DNA from: Mobula hypostoma
Taxonomy: Eukaryota
Length of the DNA: 64,000 nucleotides
Direction: 5' to 3'
NCBI RefSeq assembly: GCF_963921235.1
Contig: NC_086097.1
Span: 7,440,001 to 7,504,000, forward strand
A program made the translations under genes and the position numbers. The notes beneath the pieces were generated by a model that did no database searches, was not told the DNA's origin, and saw only the letters and a program-made list of their open reading frames with translations. Shown here one piece after another: positions 1 through 39,329 of this stretch (the first letter of the stretch is position 1; each line of letters begins with the position of its first letter).

Positions 1-434
1 GTCCATATTGCTTTTGGCAACTGATGTGATTGATTTTTTTAAATAGATCTCTTTTAACAGTTTTACTACCTAACATTATTTAACACCATAAACCAATTCA
101 AAGGAGTGCGACTGAAGAAATAAAAGATCTTTACTTACATAACCCAAGATTAAATAACTAATTTTCTTATTGCCTTCAGTGATGTTTGATGTCTACTTTT
201 AGACACAATTCAAATATACTCATAACATCAACAGTGTTAGGGCGAATTTTAATAATGTTATGTACCTACTGAAATTCATTATAAGTGCCAAAATAAATTG
301 TAAATCTGAAAAAAAAACGTGGGTCATTTAGGCTTTAAGCAATTACAGTGCATGTTTGCTCTGACTGTATTACTTTGACTGTTATGAAAAGATATTAAAC
401 ACTCACAACCAAGGAAGTGTTAGAATCTTTAAAC

Positions 435-523
435 GCAGCAGGCCAGGCAGCATCTCTAGGAAGAGGTACAGTCGACGTTTCGGGCCAAGACCCTTCGTCT
501 GTGTCCTGCAGAATTCCTCATGT
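435..523 (-). mobile_element. Miniature Penelope-like (PLE) pseudo-LTR fragment with truncated hammerhead motif
   Basis: Matches the PLE terminus at 37255-37390. Flanked by a 15-bp direct repeat, ttagaatctttaaac (420-434) and ttaggatctttaaac (524-538). Confidence 0.75.
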
Positions 524-1224: not shown

Positions 1225-2110
1225 ATCAAGTTAATTGTCATTTAACTATACAGGTATACTGCCAAACAAGACAACATTTCTCCGGACCAGGGTGTAAAGC
1301 ACAGGTGTACACAAACTCACACATAGTACACAATAACTTAGGAAAGTTGGGATAAAATCTGCAACACACTGAAAATGCTAGAGGAACTCAGCAGGCCAGG
1401 CAGCATCTATGGAAAAAAAGTACAGTCGACATTTCGGACCGAAGCCCTTTGGCAGGACTGGAGAAAAAAATCTGAGAAGTAGGTTTGAAAGGTGGAGGGA
1501 GGGGAGAGAGAAATGCCAGGCAATGCCAGGTGAAACTTGGAGGGGGGAAGGATGAAGCAAAGAGCTAGGAAGTTGATTGGTGAAAGAGACAGAAGTCCAT
1601 GGAAGAAAGATAATGTTGGCTGTACTTTTCTCCATAGATGCTGCCTGGCCTGCTGAGTTTCTCCAGCATTTTGAGTGTGTTGCTCGGATTTCCAGCATCT
1701 TGTTTGCGATAAAATGATGCAGATGAATTGTGCATAAATAAACGAAGTAAGGTGTATAAATTAAATATTGTAAGGTACAGAACAGATTAAGCTGTAACAC
1801 TTCAAACGCGATGTGGCAGGGAGTTCAGAAGACTAATGGCCTGAGGGAAGAAACTGTTTCCCATCCCATTCTTGTTTTTATGCATTACAGTGTCCTGCAT
1901 GATGGTGGAAAGTCAAAGAGGGTACTGGATGGAAGGGTGGGCCCTGTGTATGCAGCACTCCTGATAAATGTCCCCAATGGATACTAGGGAGAGCCCTATG
2001 ATCCTCTCAGCGTTCTCACAGTCCTTTGTTGGCATTTCCAGTCTGATGCTCTGCTATTCCCATAGCAGGTGGAGAAGCAACTTGTCAGGATGCTCTCGAT
2101 GGTGCTCCTT
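1225..2110 (-). mobile_element. Rex1/Babar-like LINE 3' fragment, interrupted by a PLE fold-back
   Basis: Similar to other Rex-like 3' ends in the window (e.g. 43145-43915), including the aagaaactgtttcccatcc segment and a tcaag-type tail. Confidence 0.55.
1359..1703. mobile_element. PLE-derived fold-back element
   Basis: Inverted arms at about 1361-1425 and 1620-1685. Decayed hammerhead at 1424-1459 (minus). TSD ttgggataaaat (1347-1358) / ttgcgataaaat (1704-1715). Confidence 0.8.
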
Positions 2111-6445: not shown

Positions 6446-6881
6446 CTCTTGTGCCAAGAAGAGGCCACCCTCAAGGTGGAGGAGCAACATCCTATATTCC
6501 ATTTGGGTAGGCTCCAACCTGATGGCACGAGTATCGATTTCTCCTTTCGGTAAAAAAAATGTTCCCTCCCCCACTTCCTCTTCTTCTATTCCGAACTTAG
6601 GCCTCTTGCATTTTCTCACCTACTTATTATCTCCAGTAGAGTCCCTTCCTTCTTTTCTTTCTCTTGTGATCCACTCTCCTCTCCTATTAAATTCCTTCTT
6701 CTTCAGCTCTGGCTTTGCCTATCACCTTCCAGCTATCTTCCTTACTCTCTCCCCCATCTTCTTATTCAGGTGCCTTTCCCCTTCTTTTTCAGTCCTGATG
6801 AAGGGTCTCAGCCTGAAACATTGACTGTTTATTCCTTTCCATTGTTGCTGCCTGCCCTGCTGAGTTCCTCCAGCATTGCTT
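6446..6881 (+). mobile_element. Penelope-like element 3' part (GIY-YIG C-terminus plus pseudo-LTR)
   Basis: EEATLKVEEQHPIFHLGRLQPDGTSIDFS resembles the PLE endonuclease C-terminus. Hammerhead motif at 6791-6826. TSD-like aggatttaagaac (6433-6445) / aggattgcagaac (6882-6894). Confidence 0.85.
6790..6827 (+). ncRNA. Minimal type-I hammerhead ribozyme motif (partly decayed)
   Basis: CAGTC-CTGATGA-A-GGG-TCTCAG-CCT-GAAA-C-ATT-GACTG. Stem I is CAGTC/GACTG. The cleavage triplet has changed to ATT. Confidence 0.65.
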
Positions 6882-18523: not shown

Positions 18524-18818
18524 TGTAAACACAAAATATTCTGCAGATGCTGGGGTCAAAGCAACACTCACAACACGCTGGAGGAACTCAGCAGGTTGGG
18601 CAGCATCCGTGGAAATGATCAGTTAACATTTCGGGCCGGAACCCTTCATCAGGACTGAAGAGGGAAGGGGCAGAGGCCCTATAAAGAACAAATTTATAGG
18701 GCCTCTGCCTCCTCCCTCTTCAGTCCCGATGAAGAGTTCCAGCCCGAAACGTTGACTGATCGTTTCCACGGATGCTGCCCGACCTGCTGAGTTCCTCCAG
18801 CATGTTGTGAGAGTTGCC
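18524..18818. mobile_element. PLE-derived fold-back (hairpin) mini-element with a hammerhead motif on each arm
   Basis: 125-bp inverted arms (18561-18685 and 18693-18817) with a 7-nt loop. Hammerhead motifs at 18621-18656 (minus) and 18722-18757 (plus). Perfect 14-bp TSD ttaccacttagaat (18510-18523 / 18819-18832). Confidence 0.92.
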
Positions 18819-21069: not shown

Positions 21070-22000
21070 CAAACAGTACACCATCGAGGGCAGGACTCCT
21101 AACAGTGTTGAAGAGGAGAGGGATCTCAGGTTTCAAGTTCATAGCTCCCTGAAAATGGCTACTCAGGTTGATAAGGTGATTAAGAAGGAATATTTGCTTT
21201 TATTAATCATGCATTGTGTTCAGAAATCAGGAAGTTATGTTGCAGCTTTACAAAACTCCAGTTAGGCTGCATCTTGGGTATTGCATGCAGTTTTGGTCAC
21301 CTCATTATTTGAAGGATGCTGAGGCTTTAGAGAGCTTGCAGAAGAGGTTTACCAAGATGTTCTCACAATCAAGAGAAATCTGCAGATGCTGGAAATTCAA
21401 GCAACACACACAAAATGCTGGAGGAACACAACGGACCAGGCAGCATCTATGGAAAAGATGGGTCTTCCGAGTTCTGTACCTTTTTTCATAGGTGCTGCCT
21501 GGCCTCCTGATTTCCTCCAGCGTTCTGTGTGTGTTACTAGGACGCTGTCTGGATTAGAGGGCATGTGCTATAACAAGACATTAGACAAACTCATATTGTT
21601 TTCTCTGGACTGGCGGAGGCTAAGAGGAGATCTGATGGAGGTTTATAAGATTATGAGAGGTATAGATAGAGTAGGCAGACAGTATCTTTTGCCTTTGGTT
21701 GAAATGTCTAATACCAGTGGACATGCACTTGAGGTAAGAGGGGCTAATTTCAAAGGAGATGTGAGGGGCAAGTTTTTACACAGAGAGTGATGGTAACCTG
21801 GAATGCACTGCCTGGAGTGGTGGTAGAGGCAGATACTTTAGGATCTTTTAAGAGATTTTTAGATAGACACATGAATGTGAGGAAAACAGAGGGATATGGG
21901 CATTGTGTAGGCAGAAGGGAGTAGGTCATTTGATTACTAAATTATTTAGTTTAGCACAACTTTGTGAGCTGAAGGACCTGTTGCTATTTGTACTGTTCTA
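21070..22000 (+). mobile_element. CR1 LINE 3' fragment, interrupted at 21362-21533
   Basis: EVMLQLYKTPVRLHLGYCMQFWSPHY and RRLRGDLMEVYKIMRGIDRV. Confidence 0.9.
21362..21533. mobile_element. PLE-derived fold-back mini-element lacking the hammerhead segment
   Basis: Inverted arms (acacacaaaatgctggagga..ctatggaaaa and ttttcatagg..tcctccagcgttctgtgtgt). The CR1 target is duplicated as ttaccaagatgtt (21349-21361) / ttactaggacgct (21534-21546); an intact target, ttaccaggatgct, is at 53821-53833. Confidence 0.75.
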
Positions 22001-23489: not shown

Positions 23490-24599
23490 CACCCCCTTTA
23501 ATATGACACACCAAATCATGACTGATGCAGCTGATTGGTTTTAGAAGTCACAGATTTAGTTAAATGGAGACCGGTTTTTGGAGAATTATGTGCAGTTAAA
23601 GGTGTTTCAATTGATTGTACAAACGTTGTAGTAAAACTATGCCCCTATCAGCTGGTGAGTCAGTATCCTGGAAAAAAACTACACCGTGAAGATAAAAACA
23701 ACCAATCCAAGCAACTCTGCAAAAAGGTTATTGAAAGCACCAGTGAGGAGAAAGATACAAGAAAATTTTCAATTCATTGAATATATCTTGGAGTACAGTT
23801 ATGTCAAGTTAAGAAATGGAAAGAATATGGCACAGTTGTAAATCTGCTGAGAGCAGGCCGTCCTCAAAACTAAGTGACTGTGCAAGAAGGAGACGCGTGA
23901 GTGAGACCACCAAGAGACCTGTGACAACTGTGGAGGAGTTACAAGCTTCAGTGGCTGAGATGAGAGAGACTGCACATACAACTGTTGCCTGGGTGCTTCA
24001 TTCACAGATTTATGGGAGAGTGACAAAGAGAAAGCTACTGTTGAAAAATACTCATGAAATCTCAAACTAGAGTTTGCCTGAAGGCATGTGGGAGACTGAA
24101 GTCCGCTGAAAGAAGGTTCTACAGTCTGATGGAACCAATAGCGAGCTTTTAGGTCATCAGACTAAACGCTATGATGTAGTTTGCAAGAGAGAAGACAATG
24201 ATACCAAGCATAAAGCCAAATCTACATAGGAATGGCTTAAAAGCAACAAAGTTAATGTCCTGGAGTGGCCAAGTCAAAGTCCAGACCTCAATCCAATTGA
24301 GAATTTGTGACTGGGCTTGAAACGGGCCCTTCACTCATGATCCCCAGGCAGTCTGACAGAGTTTGAGTAGTTTTGTAATGAAGAATGGGGAATAATTACG
24401 GAGTCCAGATGTGCAATTGTGTTTTTTATTTGTAATTAATTTAGATCACTTTGTAGCGATCTGTTTTCACTTTGACACAGAAGAGTCTTTCTTTTGGTCA
24501 ATGTCAGAAAAAGCTAAAGTAAATCCATTGCGATTCAATGTTATAAAACAATAAGAGATGAAAACTTCCAAGAGGGGGGAAAAGTTTTTATAGGCATTG
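23490..24599 (+). mobile_element. Tc1-family DNA transposon, deleted and frameshifted
   Basis: Paired-like HTH with GRPQKLS..RRRVSETTKRP..LQASVAEM, KKVLQSDGT, and QEKDND..VLEWPSQSPDLNPIENL (DD34E region). Right end aggcattg followed by TA at 24600-24601. Confidence 0.9.
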
Positions 24600-24744: not shown

Positions 24745-25185
24745 CTTTTGCCTATCATTTCTCCTGGAGCACCTCTTCCTTCCCTTTCTTCTGTGGTCCA
24801 CTTTTCTCTCCTATCAGATTCCTTCCTTTCCAGGCCTGTATCTTTCCCACCCACCTGGTTTAACCTATCACCTTCTAGCTATCCTCCTTCCCCTCCCAGC
24901 ACCTTTTTGTTCTGGTGTCGTCCCCCTTCCCTTCCAGTCCTGAGGAAGGGACTCAGTCCAAAACGTCGACTTTCATTCATTTCCATGGATGCTCCCTGAC
25001 CTCCTGAGTTCCTCCAGTATTTTGTGTGTGTTGGAGATGATTCTTCAGCCCTGACAAAGAGCCTCAGCCCGAAATATCAGCTGTTTATTCATTTCCACAT
25101 ACATTTCCTGTCTTGCTGCATTCCTCCAGCATTTTTTTTTGTGTGTTGCTCTGGATTTCCAGCACCTGCAGAATCTCTTATGTTG
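24745..25185 (+). mobile_element. PLE pseudo-LTR with a tandem partial duplication (two hammerhead remnants)
   Basis: Similar to 6600-6880. Hammerhead-like motifs at 24936-24971 and 25047-25082. Confidence 0.8.
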
Positions 25186-25946
25186 ACAATCTTACCTGGC
25201 TGCATAATCTCATCTTTCAAGATCTGACCCTCATAAGGTTTTCCGGCTGCAATCTTTCCCTGTAATTTAGTTTTCCCTATGTCCTATGATACTAGTTGTG
25301 TGTATGGTAATGTGTGAGGTATTATAAGCACTGCAAAAGAATGATTGTATTAAGGGAGATCCACTCTAATATCATTGGGTTATTTTCATATATTATCAAC
25401 CACCATCAATCACCAGCTATGGAACCATACAAAGCTAAATAAGTTAGAGCAATGTGATAAAAGCTAATCGTATCTCTTAAATTAAATTAACATTTACATA
25501 ATCAGTTTGTACCTCAAGGGTCCTAAAGTTGAAGCAGCATCAATTATATTCTTTGCTACTTGCTGATGCTAACTGAGCTACAACATAATGGCCTTATAAT
25601 CAATGCTTATTGGCTGGTATAAAAATTGTTTAAAAATGAAGGACAGATTACAAGACTAATTTCCGTCAAGTACAGTTGTAGCATTGTACGGCACAGATAG
25701 ATCATTACTGGTTACTTAGTCAAACATCATTCTTTAATATGCATCAAAAGAAGGTTAGAAGACGGATAATGTATCTGGTACAAGGAGTTCTTCCTTCAGT
25801 GCAGCTTTGTAGTGTTGGAACCTGATTCAAATTGAGGCAGGGAGAATCCTTTTACACTCCCGGTTATATGTCAGAAAAGGTAACATTACATGCAGTTGTG
25901 CATCTAGATATTGTAATTCTGGATAACGTTCGCAAATATTAACACA

Positions 25947-26626: not shown

Positions 26627-26739
26627 TTCACCCACCACTGTATAGCACGTGTAATACCAATAACTGGAGATAGATTTTGAGTTAAGGAATACTGTTTTAA
26701 GTTTCCGCAGGATCCAACTTATAATCACTGACTTAATGA

Positions 26740-26960
26740 CACAATACAAAATGCTGGAGGAACCCAGCAAGAGAGGTAGAATCTATGGAAAGGAATACAG
26801 AGTTGATATTTTAGGCCAATACCCTTTAGTAGAACTGGAAAGGAAAGGGAAAGAATCCTTCCAGCCGTGAAGAAGGGTCTCGTCACAAAACATCAAAACT
26901 TTATTCCTTTCCATAGATGCTGCCTGACGTGTTGCGTTCCTCCAGCATTTTGTGTGTATT
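26740..26960. mobile_element. Old PLE-derived fold-back element
   Basis: Inverted arms acaaaatgctggaggaac / gttcctccagcattttgt. Strongly decayed hammerhead remnants at 26801-26836 (minus) and 26863-26898 (plus). Confidence 0.7.
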
Positions 26961-30698: not shown

Positions 30699-31556
30699 GA
30701 ACTCAGCAGGCCAGGCAGCATCTAGGAAAAATTAGTCGACACTTTGGCCCAGAACATCGAATGTACTCTTTTCTTAGGTAAACACCAGGAAATCTGCAGA
30801 TGCTGGAAATTCAAGCAACACACACAAAATGCTGGTGGAACGCAGCAGGCCAGACTGCACCCATAGGAAGAAGTACAGTCGGGACGTTTCGGGCCGAGAC
30901 CCTTCGTCAGGACTAACTGAAAGAAGAGACAGTAAGAGATTTGAAAGTGGGAGGGGCAGGGGGAGATCTGAAATGATAGGAGAAGACAGGAGGGGGAGGG
31001 ATAAAGCTAAGAGCTGGAAAGTTGATTGGCAAAGGGGATACAAGGCTGGAGAAGGGAGAGGATCATGGGACGGGAGGCCTAGGGAGAAAGAAAAGGGGAG
31101 GGGAGCATCAGAGGAAGATGGAGAGCAGGCAAGGAGTTATAGTGAGAGGGACAGAGAGAGAAAAAAGAGAGACAAAAAAAGGAGGGGGGGATAAATAAAT
31201 AAATAAACAAACAAACAAACAAACCAATAAATAAAGGATGGGGTAAGAATGGGAGGAGGGGCATTAATGGAAGTTAGAGAGTCAATGTTCATGCCATCAG
31301 GTTGGAGGCTACCCAGACAGAATATAAGGTGTTGTTCCTCCAACCTGAGTGTGGCTTCAATTTGACATTAGAGGAGGCCATGGATAGACATATCAGAATG
31401 GGAATGGGACATGGAATTAAAATGTATGGCCACTGGGAGATCCTGCTTTCTCTGGCGGACAGAGCGTCTTTTCCCAGGTGCTGCCTGGCCTCCTGAGTTC
31501 CTCCAGCGTTTTTTGTGTGTCGCTTGGATTTCCAGCACCTGTAGATTTTCTCTTGT
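30699..31556 (-). mobile_element. Penelope-like element insertion (GIY-YIG C-terminus, pseudo-LTR, inverted terminal copy)
   Basis: RSVRQRKQDLPVAIHFNSMSHSHSDMSIHGL and EEQHLIFCLGSLQPDGMNID. Hammerhead at 30877-30914 with a 2-nt insertion. Inverted pseudo-LTR at about 31467-31556. TSD ttgtgactgtgaa (30686-30698) / tcgtggctgtgaa (31557-31569). Confidence 0.9.
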
Positions 31557-32984
31557 TCGTGGCTGTGAACTCACTTTTATGAACTTTAGTTCTAAATGTA
31601 ATTTGCTTCCTTTTTATTGTATGCATGATTTGTTCTTTCTCATTGCACATTGGGTGTTTGACCATCATCTTTTTTAATGGGTTCTGTTGTGTTTCTGTCT
31701 TGTGACTGCCAATAAAGAGATGAATCTCAAAGTTGTATATAGTCTACATACATTCTTTGACAATAAATGAATTTTGAACATTTATATCTATATATAGAAG
31801 CTATTCCTAAAATGCTGAGTGTGTGTTTTCAGGCTCTTGTACCTCCTCCCTGATGGTAGCAATGAGAAGAGGGCAGGTCCTGAGTGTTGGTGGTCCTTAA
31901 TGATGGAAGCCACTTTTTAAGATATCACCTTTTGAAGATGTCCTTGATGCTGTGGAGGCTAGTGCCCATGATGGAGCTGGCTGAGTTAGTAACGCTCTGC
32001 AGATTTTGCCGATCTCAATCAGTGCCCCTTCTATAGTAAGTGGTGATGCAACCAGGTAAAATGTTCTCCACAGTGTCTATGTGGAGTTTACATGTTCTCC
32101 TTGTGACTGGGTGGGTTTCCTTTGCTTACACTATTTTCCCCCTTCATTCCCAAGACATGTAGGTTGATAGGTTAACTGGCCACTGTTAATTGCTTCCTTG
32201 GTGACTGATAGAATCAGGGGGAATGATGAGAATGAAGAAAGAATCAGTTAGAAGTTAAACTAGTGGAGAATGAAATTGTTCTCTACACCAGTATATATTC
32301 AACAAGCTGAATGGGGACCTGCTATGTCGTTAGATAACATTGAAATAATGACATGGAACCTATGTCTTATCTCTTGATCCATCAGCGAAAGGGATGAGAG
32401 ACTCTACTTTTTCTAACTATTAAAGATGAGCAAGGTAATTTTCACTGGCATTCTGGATAAAATCTACTCCAAGGATGCAGACACAGCAACAATATTTACA
32501 AAAGTACTTTGCTGTCTAGTCTTTGAGATGGCCTGAGATTATGAAAATCTGTAAAATCTATTTCTTTTTTCCTGCACAGGGATGGAAATTTCTGGTTAGC
32601 ATTTCCTGAAAACAGTAAAACCCTCCCCACCATTGAATATGTCTGCAAGGAGTGCTTCCACAAGAAAGCAGAATCCATCATCAAGGACCTTAACCATCTG
32701 AGATATGCTCTCTTCTTGTTGCTCCATCAGAAATGAGGTGCAGGTTCCTTAGGTTCCACCCCACCAGGTTCAGGAGCAGTTATTACCCTCAACATGGACC
32801 AGCATCGTTAACTTCACTCAGTCACTGATCACTGAACGCAATCTATGGACTCACTTCTAAGGACTTTACAACTCATCTTCTCAGCATTATTTCTTTTTTT
32901 AATGTATTTATTAATTTTTGTATTTGCACAGTTTGTCTTATTTTGCACTTTGGTTGCTTGTCAGTCTTCGTAGTTTTTCAGTTG

Positions 32985-35583: not shown

Positions 35584-36025
35584 TGATGAATCAGAATCAA
35601 AATCAAGTTTAATATCACTGGCATACTTTGTGCAATTTGTTGTGACTGCTGTTATCGGTTTGTAAAATGTGATCCAAACAGTGTTGCTGCAATTATACAG
35701 GGATAAAAATGAAGTAAAATTATAAGATGAGGTTTGAGATTTAAATACCTGTTTTAACTCTTTCAGTAATTAAGGCATACACATTACTAGTCACATTTGC
35801 ACATGGAAAAATCTGCCTATTTTAATAATGACTTTAGCCTAATTTCATTGTTCAATAAGGTTCACTCAGATGAAATAAACTGCAATCTCAGTCAGTGCTA
35901 TTTTCAATTGGCTTGCTGATGTATTTGAACGCACAGTTGAAGCTGTCTCATTTAGTCTGCAAAAATACTGCCAAAAGAAACGTATTTAAAATATGAGGTG
36001 ATGGTAGCTTTAACAGTCAATGTGA

Positions 36026-36365
36026 AGAACATAGAATATAGAACATAAAAATCTGCAGCGCGTTACAGGCCTTTCGGCCCACAATGTCGTGCTGACCACA
36101 TAACCTACTCTAGAAACTGCCGAGAATTTCACTAACACATAGCCCTCTATTTTTCTAAGCTCCATGTACCTATTGTATCCGCCTCTACCACCTTCACTGC
36201 CAATACATTTCATACACCCACCACTCTTAGATAGGTAAATGAAAAAATTTACCCCTTGTACCTACTTCCAAGCACCTTAAAACTATGCCCTCTCATGTTA
36301 ACCATTTCAGCCCTCAGGAATAGCCTCTGCATAACCACACGATCAATGTCTCTCATCATCTTATT
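36026..36365 (-). mobile_element. CR1 LINE 3' end
   Basis: (aacatag)n tail; same subfamily type as 45024-45770. Confidence 0.8.
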
Positions 36366-36621
36366 CACACCAGGACTACCAGACTCAAAGAGAATTGGTT
36401 AATTTGCAAAGTAGCAAAGGGTAACATCAGAGCAATATTTGAATGTGTTGAAGTGATCTCCTGCTGTGGAACATTCAAAGGTAAGATTCTCAGCTAGTCG
36501 TCTGGTGGACTAGCCTGGTCTCTGCCAAACAAAATGTTCAGATTCTGTGAACCGCTTCTAGGTATGTAGCCAGAAAGTAAAATAGAAAAATTGTACTGGA
36601 CTGAAATTGGTGCTTTCAACT

Positions 36622-36863
36622 GTAAACACAAGAAAGTCTGCAGATGCTGGAAATCTGGAGCATCACATTCAAAACCCTGGAGGAATTCAGTAGGTTAGGC
36701 AGCATCTATGGAAAAGAGTAAACAGTTGATGTTTCAGGCCGGGACCCTTCCTTAGGCTCTGCCAGTGATATTAAACCTGAAGAAGAGTCTCCACCCGAAA
36801 TATCAAATGTTTACTCTTCTTCACAGATGCTGCCTGATCTGTTGAGTTCTTCCAATATTTGCA
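36622..36863. mobile_element. PLE-derived fold-back mini-element
   Basis: Inverted arms with decayed hammerheads at 36724-36758 (minus) and 36774-36808 (plus). TSD ggtgctttcaact (36609-36621) / ggtgttttcaagt (36864-36876). Confidence 0.8.
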
Positions 36864-37254
36864 GGTGTTTTCAAGTTGGCCATTTGAATCATTGGTATGA
36901 ACATTAATGATTTTATGAGGGTTGGGCATGGTTGGGACACACTGGATGAGTTACATAATATCCATAACTATGAGAAAACTGATTTAAGATTACTGAATTC
37001 TAATGATATTTTTAATTTAATTTAAAAAGAGGAGTTATTTCAAACACTTTCCATCCAAAAGTACAACAAATAAAATATGCCACAACTTTCCTAATCAGCC
37101 ACATGTCTCTTCTACTCAATCCTACGTTTCCCTTCTCTAACTTGTGCCTCTCTGCCTCGACATTACACCTCTCCTACTCAACCTCATGTCTCTCCTAGAA
37201 AATATTGTTTTGCCACCATTCTGAATTGCATGGTAAACAATGAGAATAATGACG

Positions 37255-37781
37255 TAAACACGAGGAATTCTGCAGATGCTGGAAATTCAAGCAACACACA
37301 TCAAAGTTGCTGGTGAACGCAGCAGGTCAGGCAGCATCTCTAGGAAGAGGTACAGTCGACGTTTCGGGCCGAGACCCTTCGTCAGGACTAACCGAAAGAA
37401 GAGCTAATAAGAGATTTGAAAGTGGGAGGGGGAGGGGGAGATCCAAAATGATAGGAGAAGACAGGAGGGGGAGGGATGGAGCCAAGAGCTGGATAGGTGA
37501 TAGGCAAAAGGGATATGAGAGGATCATGGGACAGGAGGCCCAGGGAGAAAGAAAAGGGGGAGGGGGGAAAACCCAGAGGATGGGCAAGGGGTATAGTCAG
37601 AGGGACAGAGGGAGAAAAAGGAGAGAGAGAGAAAGAATGTGTGTATATAAATGAATAACGGATGGGGTACGAGGGGGAGGTGGGGCATTAACAGAAGTTA
37701 GAGAAGTCGATGTTCATGCCATCAGGTTGGAGGCTACCCAGACGGAATATAAGGTGTTGTTCCTCCAACCTGAGTGTGGCT
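37255..37781 (-). mobile_element. Penelope-like element 3' part (young copy)
   Basis: The minus strand encodes LEEQHLIFRLGSLQPDGMNIDFSNFC-stop followed by the pseudo-LTR. Closely similar to 30778-31355. Confidence 0.9.
37353..37390 (-). ncRNA. Minimal type-I hammerhead ribozyme, intact core
   Basis: UAGUC-CUGACGA-A-GGGU-CUCG-GCCC-GAAA-C-GUC-GACUG. Stem I, the CUGANGA and GAAA core, palindromic ACGU stem III and a GUC cleavage triplet are all present. Confidence 0.82.
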
Positions 37782-39329
37782 GTGCATTCTTGACACTAGA
37801 AGAACGAGGGGGGACCCCACTGCTGTTGCTTGGTGGGTGGTGGGCATTAATGCCTTTTGCTGAAATGGGTGGGGGGCAGAGGGGGGAGGTTGATGTTTTG
37901 CAGCTGCTTGTGCACATGAGGTGGGAAAGAGGACTTTGGGGTTCTAACATTTTTCTGTCGTTCCTTCTTTTAGGTTTCTTCTATTATTTATGGATGTCTG
38001 CAAAGAGCAAGAATTTCAGGTTTTATGCTGTATATATTCTCTGATATTAAATAGAAACATTGAAGTCTATTGAATATTGAAAAGCCTGGATAGAGGATGT
38101 GGAGAGGGTATTTCCTATAGTGGTTGATTCTAGGACAGAGGGCATATTTTTCCTTGACAGGGATCCAGGGTTTTCTTTGTTTCATGGCTGTCTGTGGGAA
38201 GCCAAATCCCAGAGTTGGATACTGCATGCATAGTTTGATAATAAATGTACTTGAACCTTGAACCCTGTGCAAATAGATCTGCTATTAAGCTTTGGTCTTT
38301 GGAGTAGCACAGAACAAGTGCAATAAGTCTGCGCAATTACTAATAGAAACACCACACAACAGATAAATTAAACCATTTATTTATTTTAAAAGCTAGTTCT
38401 ATTCATTCTTGTTCAAATATTTGTCCATTCCATTATTGTTATACACCATTGGACAATGAGCTGTAGAAGTAAATATCCCTTAGCTGTTCCTATACGTCTA
38501 AATGACATAACTCACACTAAAAGATCAAGGATCAACCTTATTCACCATATACAGTGGGTTTACATGTAACAGGAATTTGCTGTAATGTCTTGGCTTGACT
38601 AAGCAACAAAAACAACATTCAATGGTTCTATAAAATAAATAAAGCGGTTTAAAGTGTTTACAGCGCAGTGAAGAGACTGAGTTAATAGATGGAGCGTCTG
38701 GGAGTGGGGGGGGGCTAACTGCAATGGTTGATCAGATTAACTGTTTGGGGGAAGAAATTTTTAAGACTGTGTGAAGTGTTTTAATAGCCCTATAGTGCTT
38801 TCCTGAAGGCAGCTTTTGAGAAAGCCCATTTGTGGGTGGGTAGCATACACAAATATGTATGTATTTATTGATTTGATTGATTGATTGAGATAGAGTCTGA
38901 AATCAGTTAACCTACTATCGGGTACAGCTTTGGACTGTTGAGAAGAAACAGGAGAATCTGGAGAAAACGGACACATTGCACGGGAAAGACATACCAACTC
39001 CTAACAGATGACGTCGGAACTGAACTTCGAGCCCCAACTGACCGAGCTAGAATAGTGTTGCACAAACCACTCCTCAACTGTGGCATCCCATTTTTAGCCT
39101 CCAGGATTTCTTCCTGCCAAAAACGCAGTACATCAGTATTGAAGCATCTAAAAGATGCATTCTGGACGAGCCGGCAGGAGTCATAGGAATGAACAAATTC
39201 TTTGATGTTTCGAAAATCTGTTAAACATCAGGACATTTCCACTCTTTTTTACTGCAAGCCATTCAGTTTAAGATGTTGTTATGTGTACAAATCGAGGCGA
39301 GAAGACTGCAACAAGCGGGGCACTTTCTA

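What the first reader, a model, noticed from the sequence alone, without database searches (positions are those of the whole stretch)
37353..37390. Intact minimal hammerhead in a young Penelope-like pseudo-LTR, one of about 13 copies in 64 kb
Seen on the minus strand: UAGUC-CUGACGA-A-GGGU-CUCG-GCCC-GAAA-C-GUC^GACUG, downstream of the GIY-YIG C-terminus. The predicted cut is between 37358 and 37357. Stem III is only the palindrome ACGU with no loop, and an extra A sits between A9 and G10.1. Related copies are at 470-499, 1424-1459, 6791-6826, 18621-18656, 18722-18757, 24936-24971, 25047-25082, 26801-26836, 26863-26898, 30877-30914, 36724-36758 and 36774-36808. The outer stem-I pair is U.G here and C-G at 6790/6827 and 18721/18758. 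Established: PLE-associated minimal hammerheads have palindromic stem III and are thought to cleave as dimers. Inference: at this density the genome would hold a very large number of latent ribozyme motifs, and intact copies could cut host pre-mRNA when in sense orientation.
Basis: partly seen in the sequence, partly recalled or inferred. Interest (0 to 1): 0.72.

Follow-up and report, generated by a model that had tools for sequence, protein, structure and literature searches.

The report
Penelope retroelement hammerhead in a ray
This 38-base motif is a real minimal hammerhead ribozyme sequence at the end of a truncated Penelope-like jumping gene in a ray genome, a kind already described, and it most likely sits folded in an inactive shape rather than cutting host RNA.

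Summary
37353-37390(-) is a complete minimal type-I hammerhead (min-HHR) in the 3' pseudo-LTR of a 5'-truncated, probably Neptune-clade Penelope-like element (37254-37795). Its protein relatives come from stingrays and devil rays. All 13 listed copies are homologous, but only this one keeps the core, stems I and II, the ACGU palindrome and the cut-site register; the rest decay largely through CpG deamination. The kind is known (Cervera and De la Pena 2014), and this scan has noted it many times elsewhere in this genome and in a shark. Host pre-mRNA cutting is unlikely. The monomer folds into a rod that pairs the catalytic core onto the cut site. No intact partner lies nearby. Published monomers are inactive, and 16 of 20 arms in the window were copied across the cut site. 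One open lead: stem I sits on a polypyrimidine-AG signature resembling a splice acceptor, as in Drosophila Penelope, and one ray gene model starts its element-derived segment exactly there.

The parts
37353..37390 (-). Minimal type-I hammerhead, intact; predicted cut C17^G1.1 between 37358 and 37357
37254..37795 (-). 5'-truncated Penelope-like element: endonuclease C-terminus, pyrimidine-rich tract, hammerhead, downstream pseudo-LTR with tail; no target-site duplication found
   Evidence: (loose ends at 37256, 37780)
37688..37795 (-). Last 35 codons of the GIY-YIG endonuclease domain plus stop (P0001); 81% to P0003 in a 78-residue tblastn stretch that runs on past the stop
37391..37687 (-). 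Pyrimidine-rich tract between stop codon and hammerhead; candidate pseudo-LTR intron ending at an AG at or just before stem I (inferred, not shown)
37254..37352 (-). Pseudo-LTR downstream of the cut, predicted long hairpin; the last ~36 nt (about 37254-37290) are the optional PLE 'tail' between two preferred 3' ends
30778..31466 (-). Longer sibling copy; hammerhead 30877-30914 has an intact core but a 2-nt insertion at the scissile bond; nearest plausible same-strand enzyme-strand partner, 6.4 kb downstream
31468..31557 (+). Inverted arm of the same insertion, starting about 8 nt 3' of the cut position
432..521 (-). Young short insertion (66 of 68 identical to the focal copy), truncated inside the core, with ~22 nt of inverted tail and a 15-bp target duplication
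1360..1700 (.). Head-to-head pair: minus arm with decayed hammerhead 1424-1459 (A6>C, G8>A), plus arm 1612-1700; 12-bp target duplication
6446..6875 (+). Older-subfamily copy with endonuclease end; hammerhead 6791-6826 has an intact core but has lost the palindrome (ACAU)
18525..18817 (.). Fold-back pair of decayed hammerheads (18621-18656 minus, 18722-18757 plus), tail on one arm only, 15-bp target duplication
21367..21538 (.). Fold-back pair whose arms start about 8 and 2 nt 3' of the cut position (no hammerhead core)
24772..25187 (+). Tandem pair of hammerheads 111 nt apart (24936, G12>A; 25047, G8>A), both broken
26739..26960 (.). Fold-back pair of decayed hammerheads (26801-26836 minus, 26863-26898 plus)
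36622..36871 (.). Fold-back pair (36724-36758 minus, G5>A; 36774-36808 plus, helices broken), 11-bp target duplication; nearest same-strand neighbour of the focal motif

Best explanation
The motif is the normal min-HHR of a very abundant Penelope-like retrotransposon (probably Neptune clade) of a myliobatiform ray, carried in a dead 5'-truncated copy. In active tandem master elements it is kept for the element's own RNA processing, where two copies pair through the ACGU palindrome, probably helped by the element's protein (inferred from literature). In a solo genomic copy it folds into an inactive rod, in which G5-A6-C7-G8 pairs with C15.2-G16.2-U16.1-C17 (predicted). It is copied into DNA uncut, because reverse transcription starts 65 or 103 nt downstream and runs through it (inferred from arm ends). 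It then decays, fastest at CpGs that overlap G12, the palindrome and the cut site (shown by counts). This copy has simply not decayed yet.
For: Anatomy matches min-HHR feature by feature (PMC4209133). Protein relatives have RT (YIDD), a CX4CXXC linker and a GIY-YIG domain. Arm 3' ends cluster at +64 to about +75 (7 arms; two of these ends, 1360 and 25033, taken from the profile hits because the pairwise alignment overran) and +101 to +104 (7 arms) of 20. Head-to-head pairs and 11-15 bp target duplications are present, as in PMC11167929 and PMC8557442. 16 of 20 arms span the cut site. Rod pairs have probability 0.985-0.998 alone and 0.86-0.87 with 100 nt of context; the active dimer scores -16.7 against -25.8 kcal/mol for two rods, secondary structure only. 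CpG cells differ in 26 of 66 against 30 of 258 others, all 26 deamination-type. C11.1>U is in 46-59% of family depth in 4 of 4 runs (37366 G>A).
Against: No cleavage assay was run. Nearest-neighbour energies ignore tertiary contacts, Mg2+ and proteins. Core conservation beyond the flank is only a trend (6 of 108 against 34 of 288 non-CpG cells, p=0.09). Covariation does not exceed shuffles (251 of 500 for pairing, 97 of 500 for double changes), so selection on the ribozyme in the masters is not shown here. 3 of 20 arms start 2-8 nt past the cut site. No full-length element was available, so the clade rests on protein relatives.
Confidence: 0.85

Rival explanations
1. (First reader) Intact dispersed copies cut host pre-mRNA when transcribed in sense, pairing with another copy in cis or in trans.
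For: The focal motif is intact. The 30877 copy, 6.4 kb downstream on the same strand, has an intact core and complementary stem I and palindrome, so it could in principle act as the enzyme strand. The family is very abundant. Xenopus retrozymes are under-represented in introns (bioRxiv 10.64898/2026.07.22.740005; orientation not reported in the parts read).
Against: Both partners must first melt rods of -12.9 and -14.2 kcal/mol. The nearer neighbour (36724) has G5>A, a broken stem I and no palindrome. Published min-HHR monomers were inactive and dimers weak. 8 of 9 predicted Xenopus dimers did not cleave. No Anolis RNA reads ended at the cut site.
Confidence: 0.07
2. The pyrimidine tract is a pseudo-LTR intron whose 3' splice site lies at the 5' edge of stem I, so the main host effect of dispersed copies is cryptic exon capture, not cleavage. 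This is compatible with the best explanation.
For: In 8 of the 10 arms examined, 15-19 of the 20 bases before the stem-I AG are pyrimidines; the other 2 are truncated there. The family majority has a second AG 4 nt upstream, mutated in the focal copy (37393 C>T in 98% of X1 depth). One Mobula birostris gene model (P0007) switches from unrelated sequence to element-derived sequence exactly at that upstream AG (compare the read-through frame 30774-31136). In D. virilis Penelope the intron end maps to the 5' end of helix I, and PMC8557442 expects such introns in other PLEs. The older-subfamily arm has a donor-like GTAA at its stop codon (6544-6547).
Against: The whole tract is pyrimidine-rich, and the AG is also required by stem-I pairing, so the signature is not independent. 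The donor-like motif is absent in the two arms of the focal subfamily. The gene model is one prediction among 3 candidates, and it could reflect a DNA junction, because many arms are truncated at -26 to -46. The other reading frame gave 0 of 7 candidates. No GT-AG joint ending at 37387 or 37391 was among the 15 joints shown of 276.
Confidence: 0.3
3. The hammerhead cleaves in vivo during transposition, and the short arms starting near the cut are run-off copies of cleaved RNA.
For: 3 of 20 arms begin at +2, +8 and +8. An earlier scan note (e1-7790562) reports one insertion starting at the cut; not checked here.
Against: None of the 20 begins at +1 by pairwise alignment (one profile envelope, 31458, does). 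The 3' foot of the rod is at +5, so stalling of reverse transcriptase gives the same ends. No loose-end peak at 37357/8 is among the 24 loose ends shown of 2586. HHR mutants did not affect insertion in vitro.
Confidence: 0.2
4. The motif is a chance match in low-complexity repeat sequence.
For: No Rfam hit; the folding z-score is only -1.3.
Against: 2 descriptor hits against 0.005 expected. The position in the PLE pseudo-LTR is as published, and it carries features outside the descriptor (extra base, G10.1-C11.1, palindrome).
Confidence: 0.01

Closest known systems
min-HHR of metazoan Penelope-like elements (Cervera and De la Pena 2014, PMC4209133; parts 1-2 of 4 read, supplement searched for 6 terms)
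   Same: Type-I topology, short helix I, no loop 3 with palindromic 15.2-16.2, extra base between 9 and 10.1, G10.1-C11.1, place in the pseudo-LTR, mostly solo copies in truncated elements, thousands per vertebrate genome.
   Different: Helix II is only 4 bp here (7-8 bp in the Schistosoma families). Cartilaginous fish are not named in the parts read, and 'shark', 'Callorhinchus' and 'Leucoraja' have 0 hits in the supplement text (figures are not held). Density here is about 200 homologous motifs per Mb in this window.
Poseidon PAc of Anolis carolinensis (Frangieh et al. 2024, PMC11167929; parts 1-2 of 4 read)
   Same: Hammerhead in the pseudo-LTR, two downstream initiation sites giving an optional 30-40 bp tail, uncleaved RNA as template.
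   Different: Different clade: relatives here carry the CX2-5CXXC linker. In PAc the ORF starts inside the hammerhead; the ORF start of the ray element was not determined.
Neptune-clade PLEs (Craig et al. 2021, PMC8557442; passages read)
   Same: C-terminal GIY-YIG, Zn-finger-like linker, inverted 5'-truncated arms, tail.
   Different: No phylogeny was built. The linker is shared with Nematis. The focal copy itself holds only the last 35 codons.
Animal non-LTR retrozymes (Li et al. 2026, bioRxiv 10.64898/2026.07.22.740005; parts 1-3 of 5 read, supplements closed)
   Same: Type-I hammerheads derived from PLE pseudo-LTRs; one chondrichthyan genome was among those positive.
   Different: Retrozymes are defined as tandem arrays with intact hammerheads. 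The focal copy is solo and attached to ORF remnant; the only tandem pair in the window is broken in both units.
Drosophila virilis Penelope (Schostak et al. 2008, PMC2377424; passages read)
   Same: Pseudo-LTR with a hammerhead whose helix I begins at an intron end (candidate parallel only).
   Different: There the 75-bp intron is shown by RT-PCR; here a ~300-nt intron is only inferred.

Membership tests
min-HHR of PLEs | Core C3 U4 G5 A6 N7 G8 A9, G12 A13 A14 A15.1, U16.1 H17 | tested here: met
   (focal copy, 0 changes)
min-HHR of PLEs | Helix I (4-5 bp) and helix II with G10.1-C11.1, extra base between 9 and 10.1 | tested here: met
min-HHR of PLEs | No loop 3; palindromic 15.1-16.1 | tested here: met
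   ACGU at 37362-37359
min-HHR of PLEs | Located in the pseudo-LTR of a PLE | tested here: met
min-HHR of PLEs | Covariation or selection on the structure across copies | tested here: inconclusive
   p=0.09; not above shuffles; copies decay neutrally
min-HHR of PLEs | Self-cleavage as a dimer | not testable with these tools
   needs an assay
Rfam hammerhead families | Score at gathering threshold | tested here: not met
EN+ Penelope-like elements | RT plus C-terminal GIY-YIG ORF | tested here: met
   Met in relatives P0003-P0006 (GIY-YIG E 5e-4 to 2e-3 in 3 of 4, below the curated cut-off); the window holds only the C-terminal end
EN+ Penelope-like elements | Inverted truncated arms and optional 30-40 bp tail | tested here: met
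Neptune clade | CX2-5CXXC linker before the endonuclease | tested here: met
   CX4CXXC in 4 of 4 relatives; shared with Nematis
Neptune clade | RT phylogeny | not tested
   no reference set fetched
non-LTR retrozymes | Tandem units each with an intact hammerhead | tested here: not met
   focal copy solo; the 24936/25047 pair is broken

The most novel reading that the evidence does not exclude
The ray element carries a ~300-nt spliceosomal intron between its stop codon and the hammerhead, with the acceptor on the 5' strand of stem I. This would extend the Drosophila intron-ribozyme overlap to a vertebrate Neptune element, with splicing remodelling the ribozyme. Hundreds of thousands of dispersed ends would then act as portable splice acceptors that are captured into host transcripts, while the ribozyme stays locked in a self-paired rod unless the element's protein opens it.
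Probability: 0.25. Interest if true: 0.5.

Novelty: new member of a known kind. Interest (0 to 1): 0.22.

Why it matters
As it stands it adds a ray family to a described class and shows why a genome can carry very many hammerhead motifs without harm: solo copies are predicted to fold inactive, and they lose CpG-overlapping catalytic positions quickly. Because the family is so abundant, a ray genome is a good place to settle an open question, namely whether PLE hammerheads ever cut in vivo (count insertion ends at the cut site, and test strand bias in introns). If the splice-acceptor lead holds, it would show that the intron-hammerhead overlap known from Drosophila is conserved in a vertebrate and shapes host transcripts.

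Tried and rejected
No whole genome is held, so there is no genome-wide count, end histogram or intron-orientation test. Rfam found nothing. RNAalifold on 10 arms gave a weak alternative fold (-2.9 kcal/mol), not the hammerhead, as expected for decayed copies. The host-gene search scanned the 150 longest of 264 stop-to-stop frames of 45 aa or more outside self-repeats. It found 4 Pfam matches: an endonuclease-reverse transcriptase, hAT, Tc3 and a short ALKBH8_N piece that I take to be repeat-derived (recalled). There was no clear host exon; short exons would be missed. No RNA holder is listed for 36000-39000. The unique flank has no cover in the two RNA-guess runs. Neither is evidence on expression. 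Depth over the hammerhead is about 1e6 times the unique flank, or 3e4 if divided by 31 for contig overlap; the tool says this is no copy number, so it is used only as 'very abundant'. RNA-guess/DNA depth ratios dip over 37408-37679 (0.03-0.08) against 0.14-0.19 on both sides. That would fit an intron, but contig depth cannot rank parts of a gene and subfamily differences could give the same dip, so it is not counted. One X16 contig ends at 37358, which is not evidence because contigs show no RNA ends. The count of 22 differences in the 3' segment was dropped as an alignment-register artefact. No target duplication was found for the focal copy. Lunse et al. 2017 is not held and was seen only through a review passage. 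Paper searches listed no paper on ray PLE hammerheads or on an intron in a vertebrate PLE; subscription papers, Repbase and bioRxiv supplements were not visible and may cover it.

Full report
Observation. It gives a 5-bp stem I, the core CUGACGA, an extra A, a 4-bp stem II closed by G10.1-C11.1, GAAA, the loop-less palindrome ACGU, and a predicted cut between 37358 and 37357. All 13 listed copies are homologous. A profile from ten arms finds 20 arms at E<=0.5 and none in the reversed window. A hammerhead descriptor hits 2 places, against 0.005 on average in 200 Markov-shuffled windows. Rfam does not see it.

What carries it. Upstream lie a ~300-nt pyrimidine tract and the last 35 codons of an ORF. 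The same ORF end from the longer copy at 31281-31439 matched 4 of 5 candidate proteins, from Mobula hypostoma (89%) and Hypanus sabinus (81-83%). These have an RT YIDD motif, a CX4CXXC linker and a GIY-YIG domain. By the clade description in PMC8557442 (passages) that means Neptune or Nematis; Neptune and Poseidon are the clades reported in vertebrates, so Neptune is most likely. The host is therefore a ray (inference). The focal copy is 5'-truncated at about 37795. Its 5' junction is bridged by a contig of a second species label, so the insertion predates that split. The 3' junction is covered with only 21 bases inside the element and does not count as bridged.

Architecture. Relative to the cut, arm 3' ends fall at +101 to +104 in 7 of 20 arms and at +64 to about +75 in 7 of 20. 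Several insertions are head-to-head pairs with the extra ~36 nt on one arm only, and four have 11-15 bp target duplications. This is the PLE tail, which PMC11167929 (parts 1-2 read) explains by two internal reverse-transcription starts downstream of the hammerhead. 16 of 20 arms span the cut site, so their templates were uncut or re-ligated there (inference). Three start at +2, +8 and +8, and one is tail only. Ends near the cut cannot be told from stalling at the 3' foot of stem I (+5).

State of the copies. Only the focal motif keeps everything. 470 is truncated in the core. 1424, 18722, 24936, 25047, 26801, 26863 and 36724 have core changes. 6791 lost the palindrome, 18621 and 36774 have broken helices, and 30877 has two extra bases at the scissile bond. 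Three CpGs overlap C11.1-G12, C15.2-G16.2 and C17-G1.1. Across 11 copies (30877 left out, 470 counted only where present), 26 of 66 cells there differ from the focal copy, all by C>T or G>A, against 30 of 258 elsewhere (N7 and loop II columns left out). Fisher p is 8e-7, but the cells are not independent. Across the family, C11.1>U makes up 46-59% of depth in all 4 runs laid.

How it most likely works. Shown by computation: the monomer's best fold keeps stems I and II but pairs G5, A6, C7 and G8 with C17, U16.1, G16.2 and C15.2. The probability is 0.985-0.998 alone and 0.86-0.87 in context, which locks up both the general acid and the scissile site. The active double hammerhead scores -16.7 kcal/mol against -25.8 for two rods, without tertiary terms. 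From the literature: min-HHR monomers did not cleave and dimers cleaved weakly (PMC4209133, parts 1-2). The Anolis ribozyme cut only with the element's protein, was dispensable for insertion, and left no RNA ends at the cut site. One of nine Xenopus dimers cut. Inferred: the ribozyme serves tandem master elements and is a passenger in solo copies. Host pre-mRNA cutting needs a partner. The nearest same-strand motif (36724) is broken. The 30877 motif 6.4 kb away could serve as enzyme strand on paper, but both rods must melt. No host exon was detected, so orientation relative to a host gene is unknown.

A lead beyond the finding. In 8 of 10 arms examined, stem I is preceded by 15-19 pyrimidines in 20 bases and begins at an AG. 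The family majority has a further AG four bases upstream, which the focal copy has lost. This resembles a 3' splice site, and in D. virilis Penelope the intron ends at helix I. I predicted that captured exons should begin at this AG and searched both open frames. One frame returned 1 protein of 3 candidates, a Mobula birostris gene model whose element-derived segment begins at the upstream AG. The other returned 0 of 7. Against it: the tract is pyrimidine-rich throughout, the AG is also needed for stem I, and the donor-like motif at the stop codon is present in the older arm but not in the two focal-subfamily arms. The single gene model is a prediction, and no matching joint was among the 15 shown of 276. 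I put it at about 0.25-0.3.

Comparison and novelty. The motif meets every sequence-level feature of the PLE min-HHR that could be tested, and it fails the retrozyme definition. Six paper searches listed no study of ray PLE hammerheads. A 2026 preprint (parts 1-3 read, supplements closed) does include one chondrichthyan with PLE-derived hammerheads. The scan's own notes have 61 entries fitting 'Penelope hammerhead' in this genome, of which 8 were shown, and one in a shark; these are unchecked and not counted as support. Abundance is high: 13 motifs in 64 kb is about 200 per Mb, which for a genome of several gigabases (size recalled) would be hundreds of thousands, mostly decayed. Verdict: real, a new member of a known kind, interest 0.22.

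Noticed in passing
window:37388-37410 minus; also 6775-6793 plus, 18655-18680 minus, 24915-24937 plus: Polypyrimidine tract plus AG at the start of stem I, like a splice acceptor; one ray gene model (P0007) starts its element-derived segment there.
   Followed up: partly
window: arms with 5' ends at 499, 18667, 18709, 25047, 26847, 26863, 36756, 36771, 43032: 9 of 20 arms align only from -26 to -46 relative to the cut, close to the 5' edge of stem I (-33). Some are true fold-back junctions, others subfamily divergence. Snap-back of the new cDNA on the hairpin is a possible cause (inference).
   Followed up: partly
window:432-521: Very young 90-bp insertion with a 15-bp target duplication, truncated inside the hammerhead core and ending early at +42.
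   Followed up: partly
window:30696-30755 minus: An extra partial arm directly downstream of the 30778 copy's tail, spanning the cut site but lacking the 5' core.
   Followed up: no
   Followed up: no
window:54021-55229 minus: 402-codon open frame of a CR1-type LINE reverse transcriptase (family recalled from its motifs, not searched), the longest open frame in the window; many decayed relatives are scattered through the window, which is 44% self-repeated.
   Followed up: no
window:16193-16495 minus and 23813-24067 plus: Fragments matching a hAT dimerisation domain and a Tc3 transposase.
   Followed up: no
window:22279-23541 plus: Decayed frames that look like an LTR-retrotransposon gag-protease region (recalled resemblance; no Pfam match).
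   Followed up: no
window:37796-38000 minus: A different, lower-copy repeat abuts the truncated 5' end of the focal element (depth), which may explain the missing target duplication.
   Followed up: no
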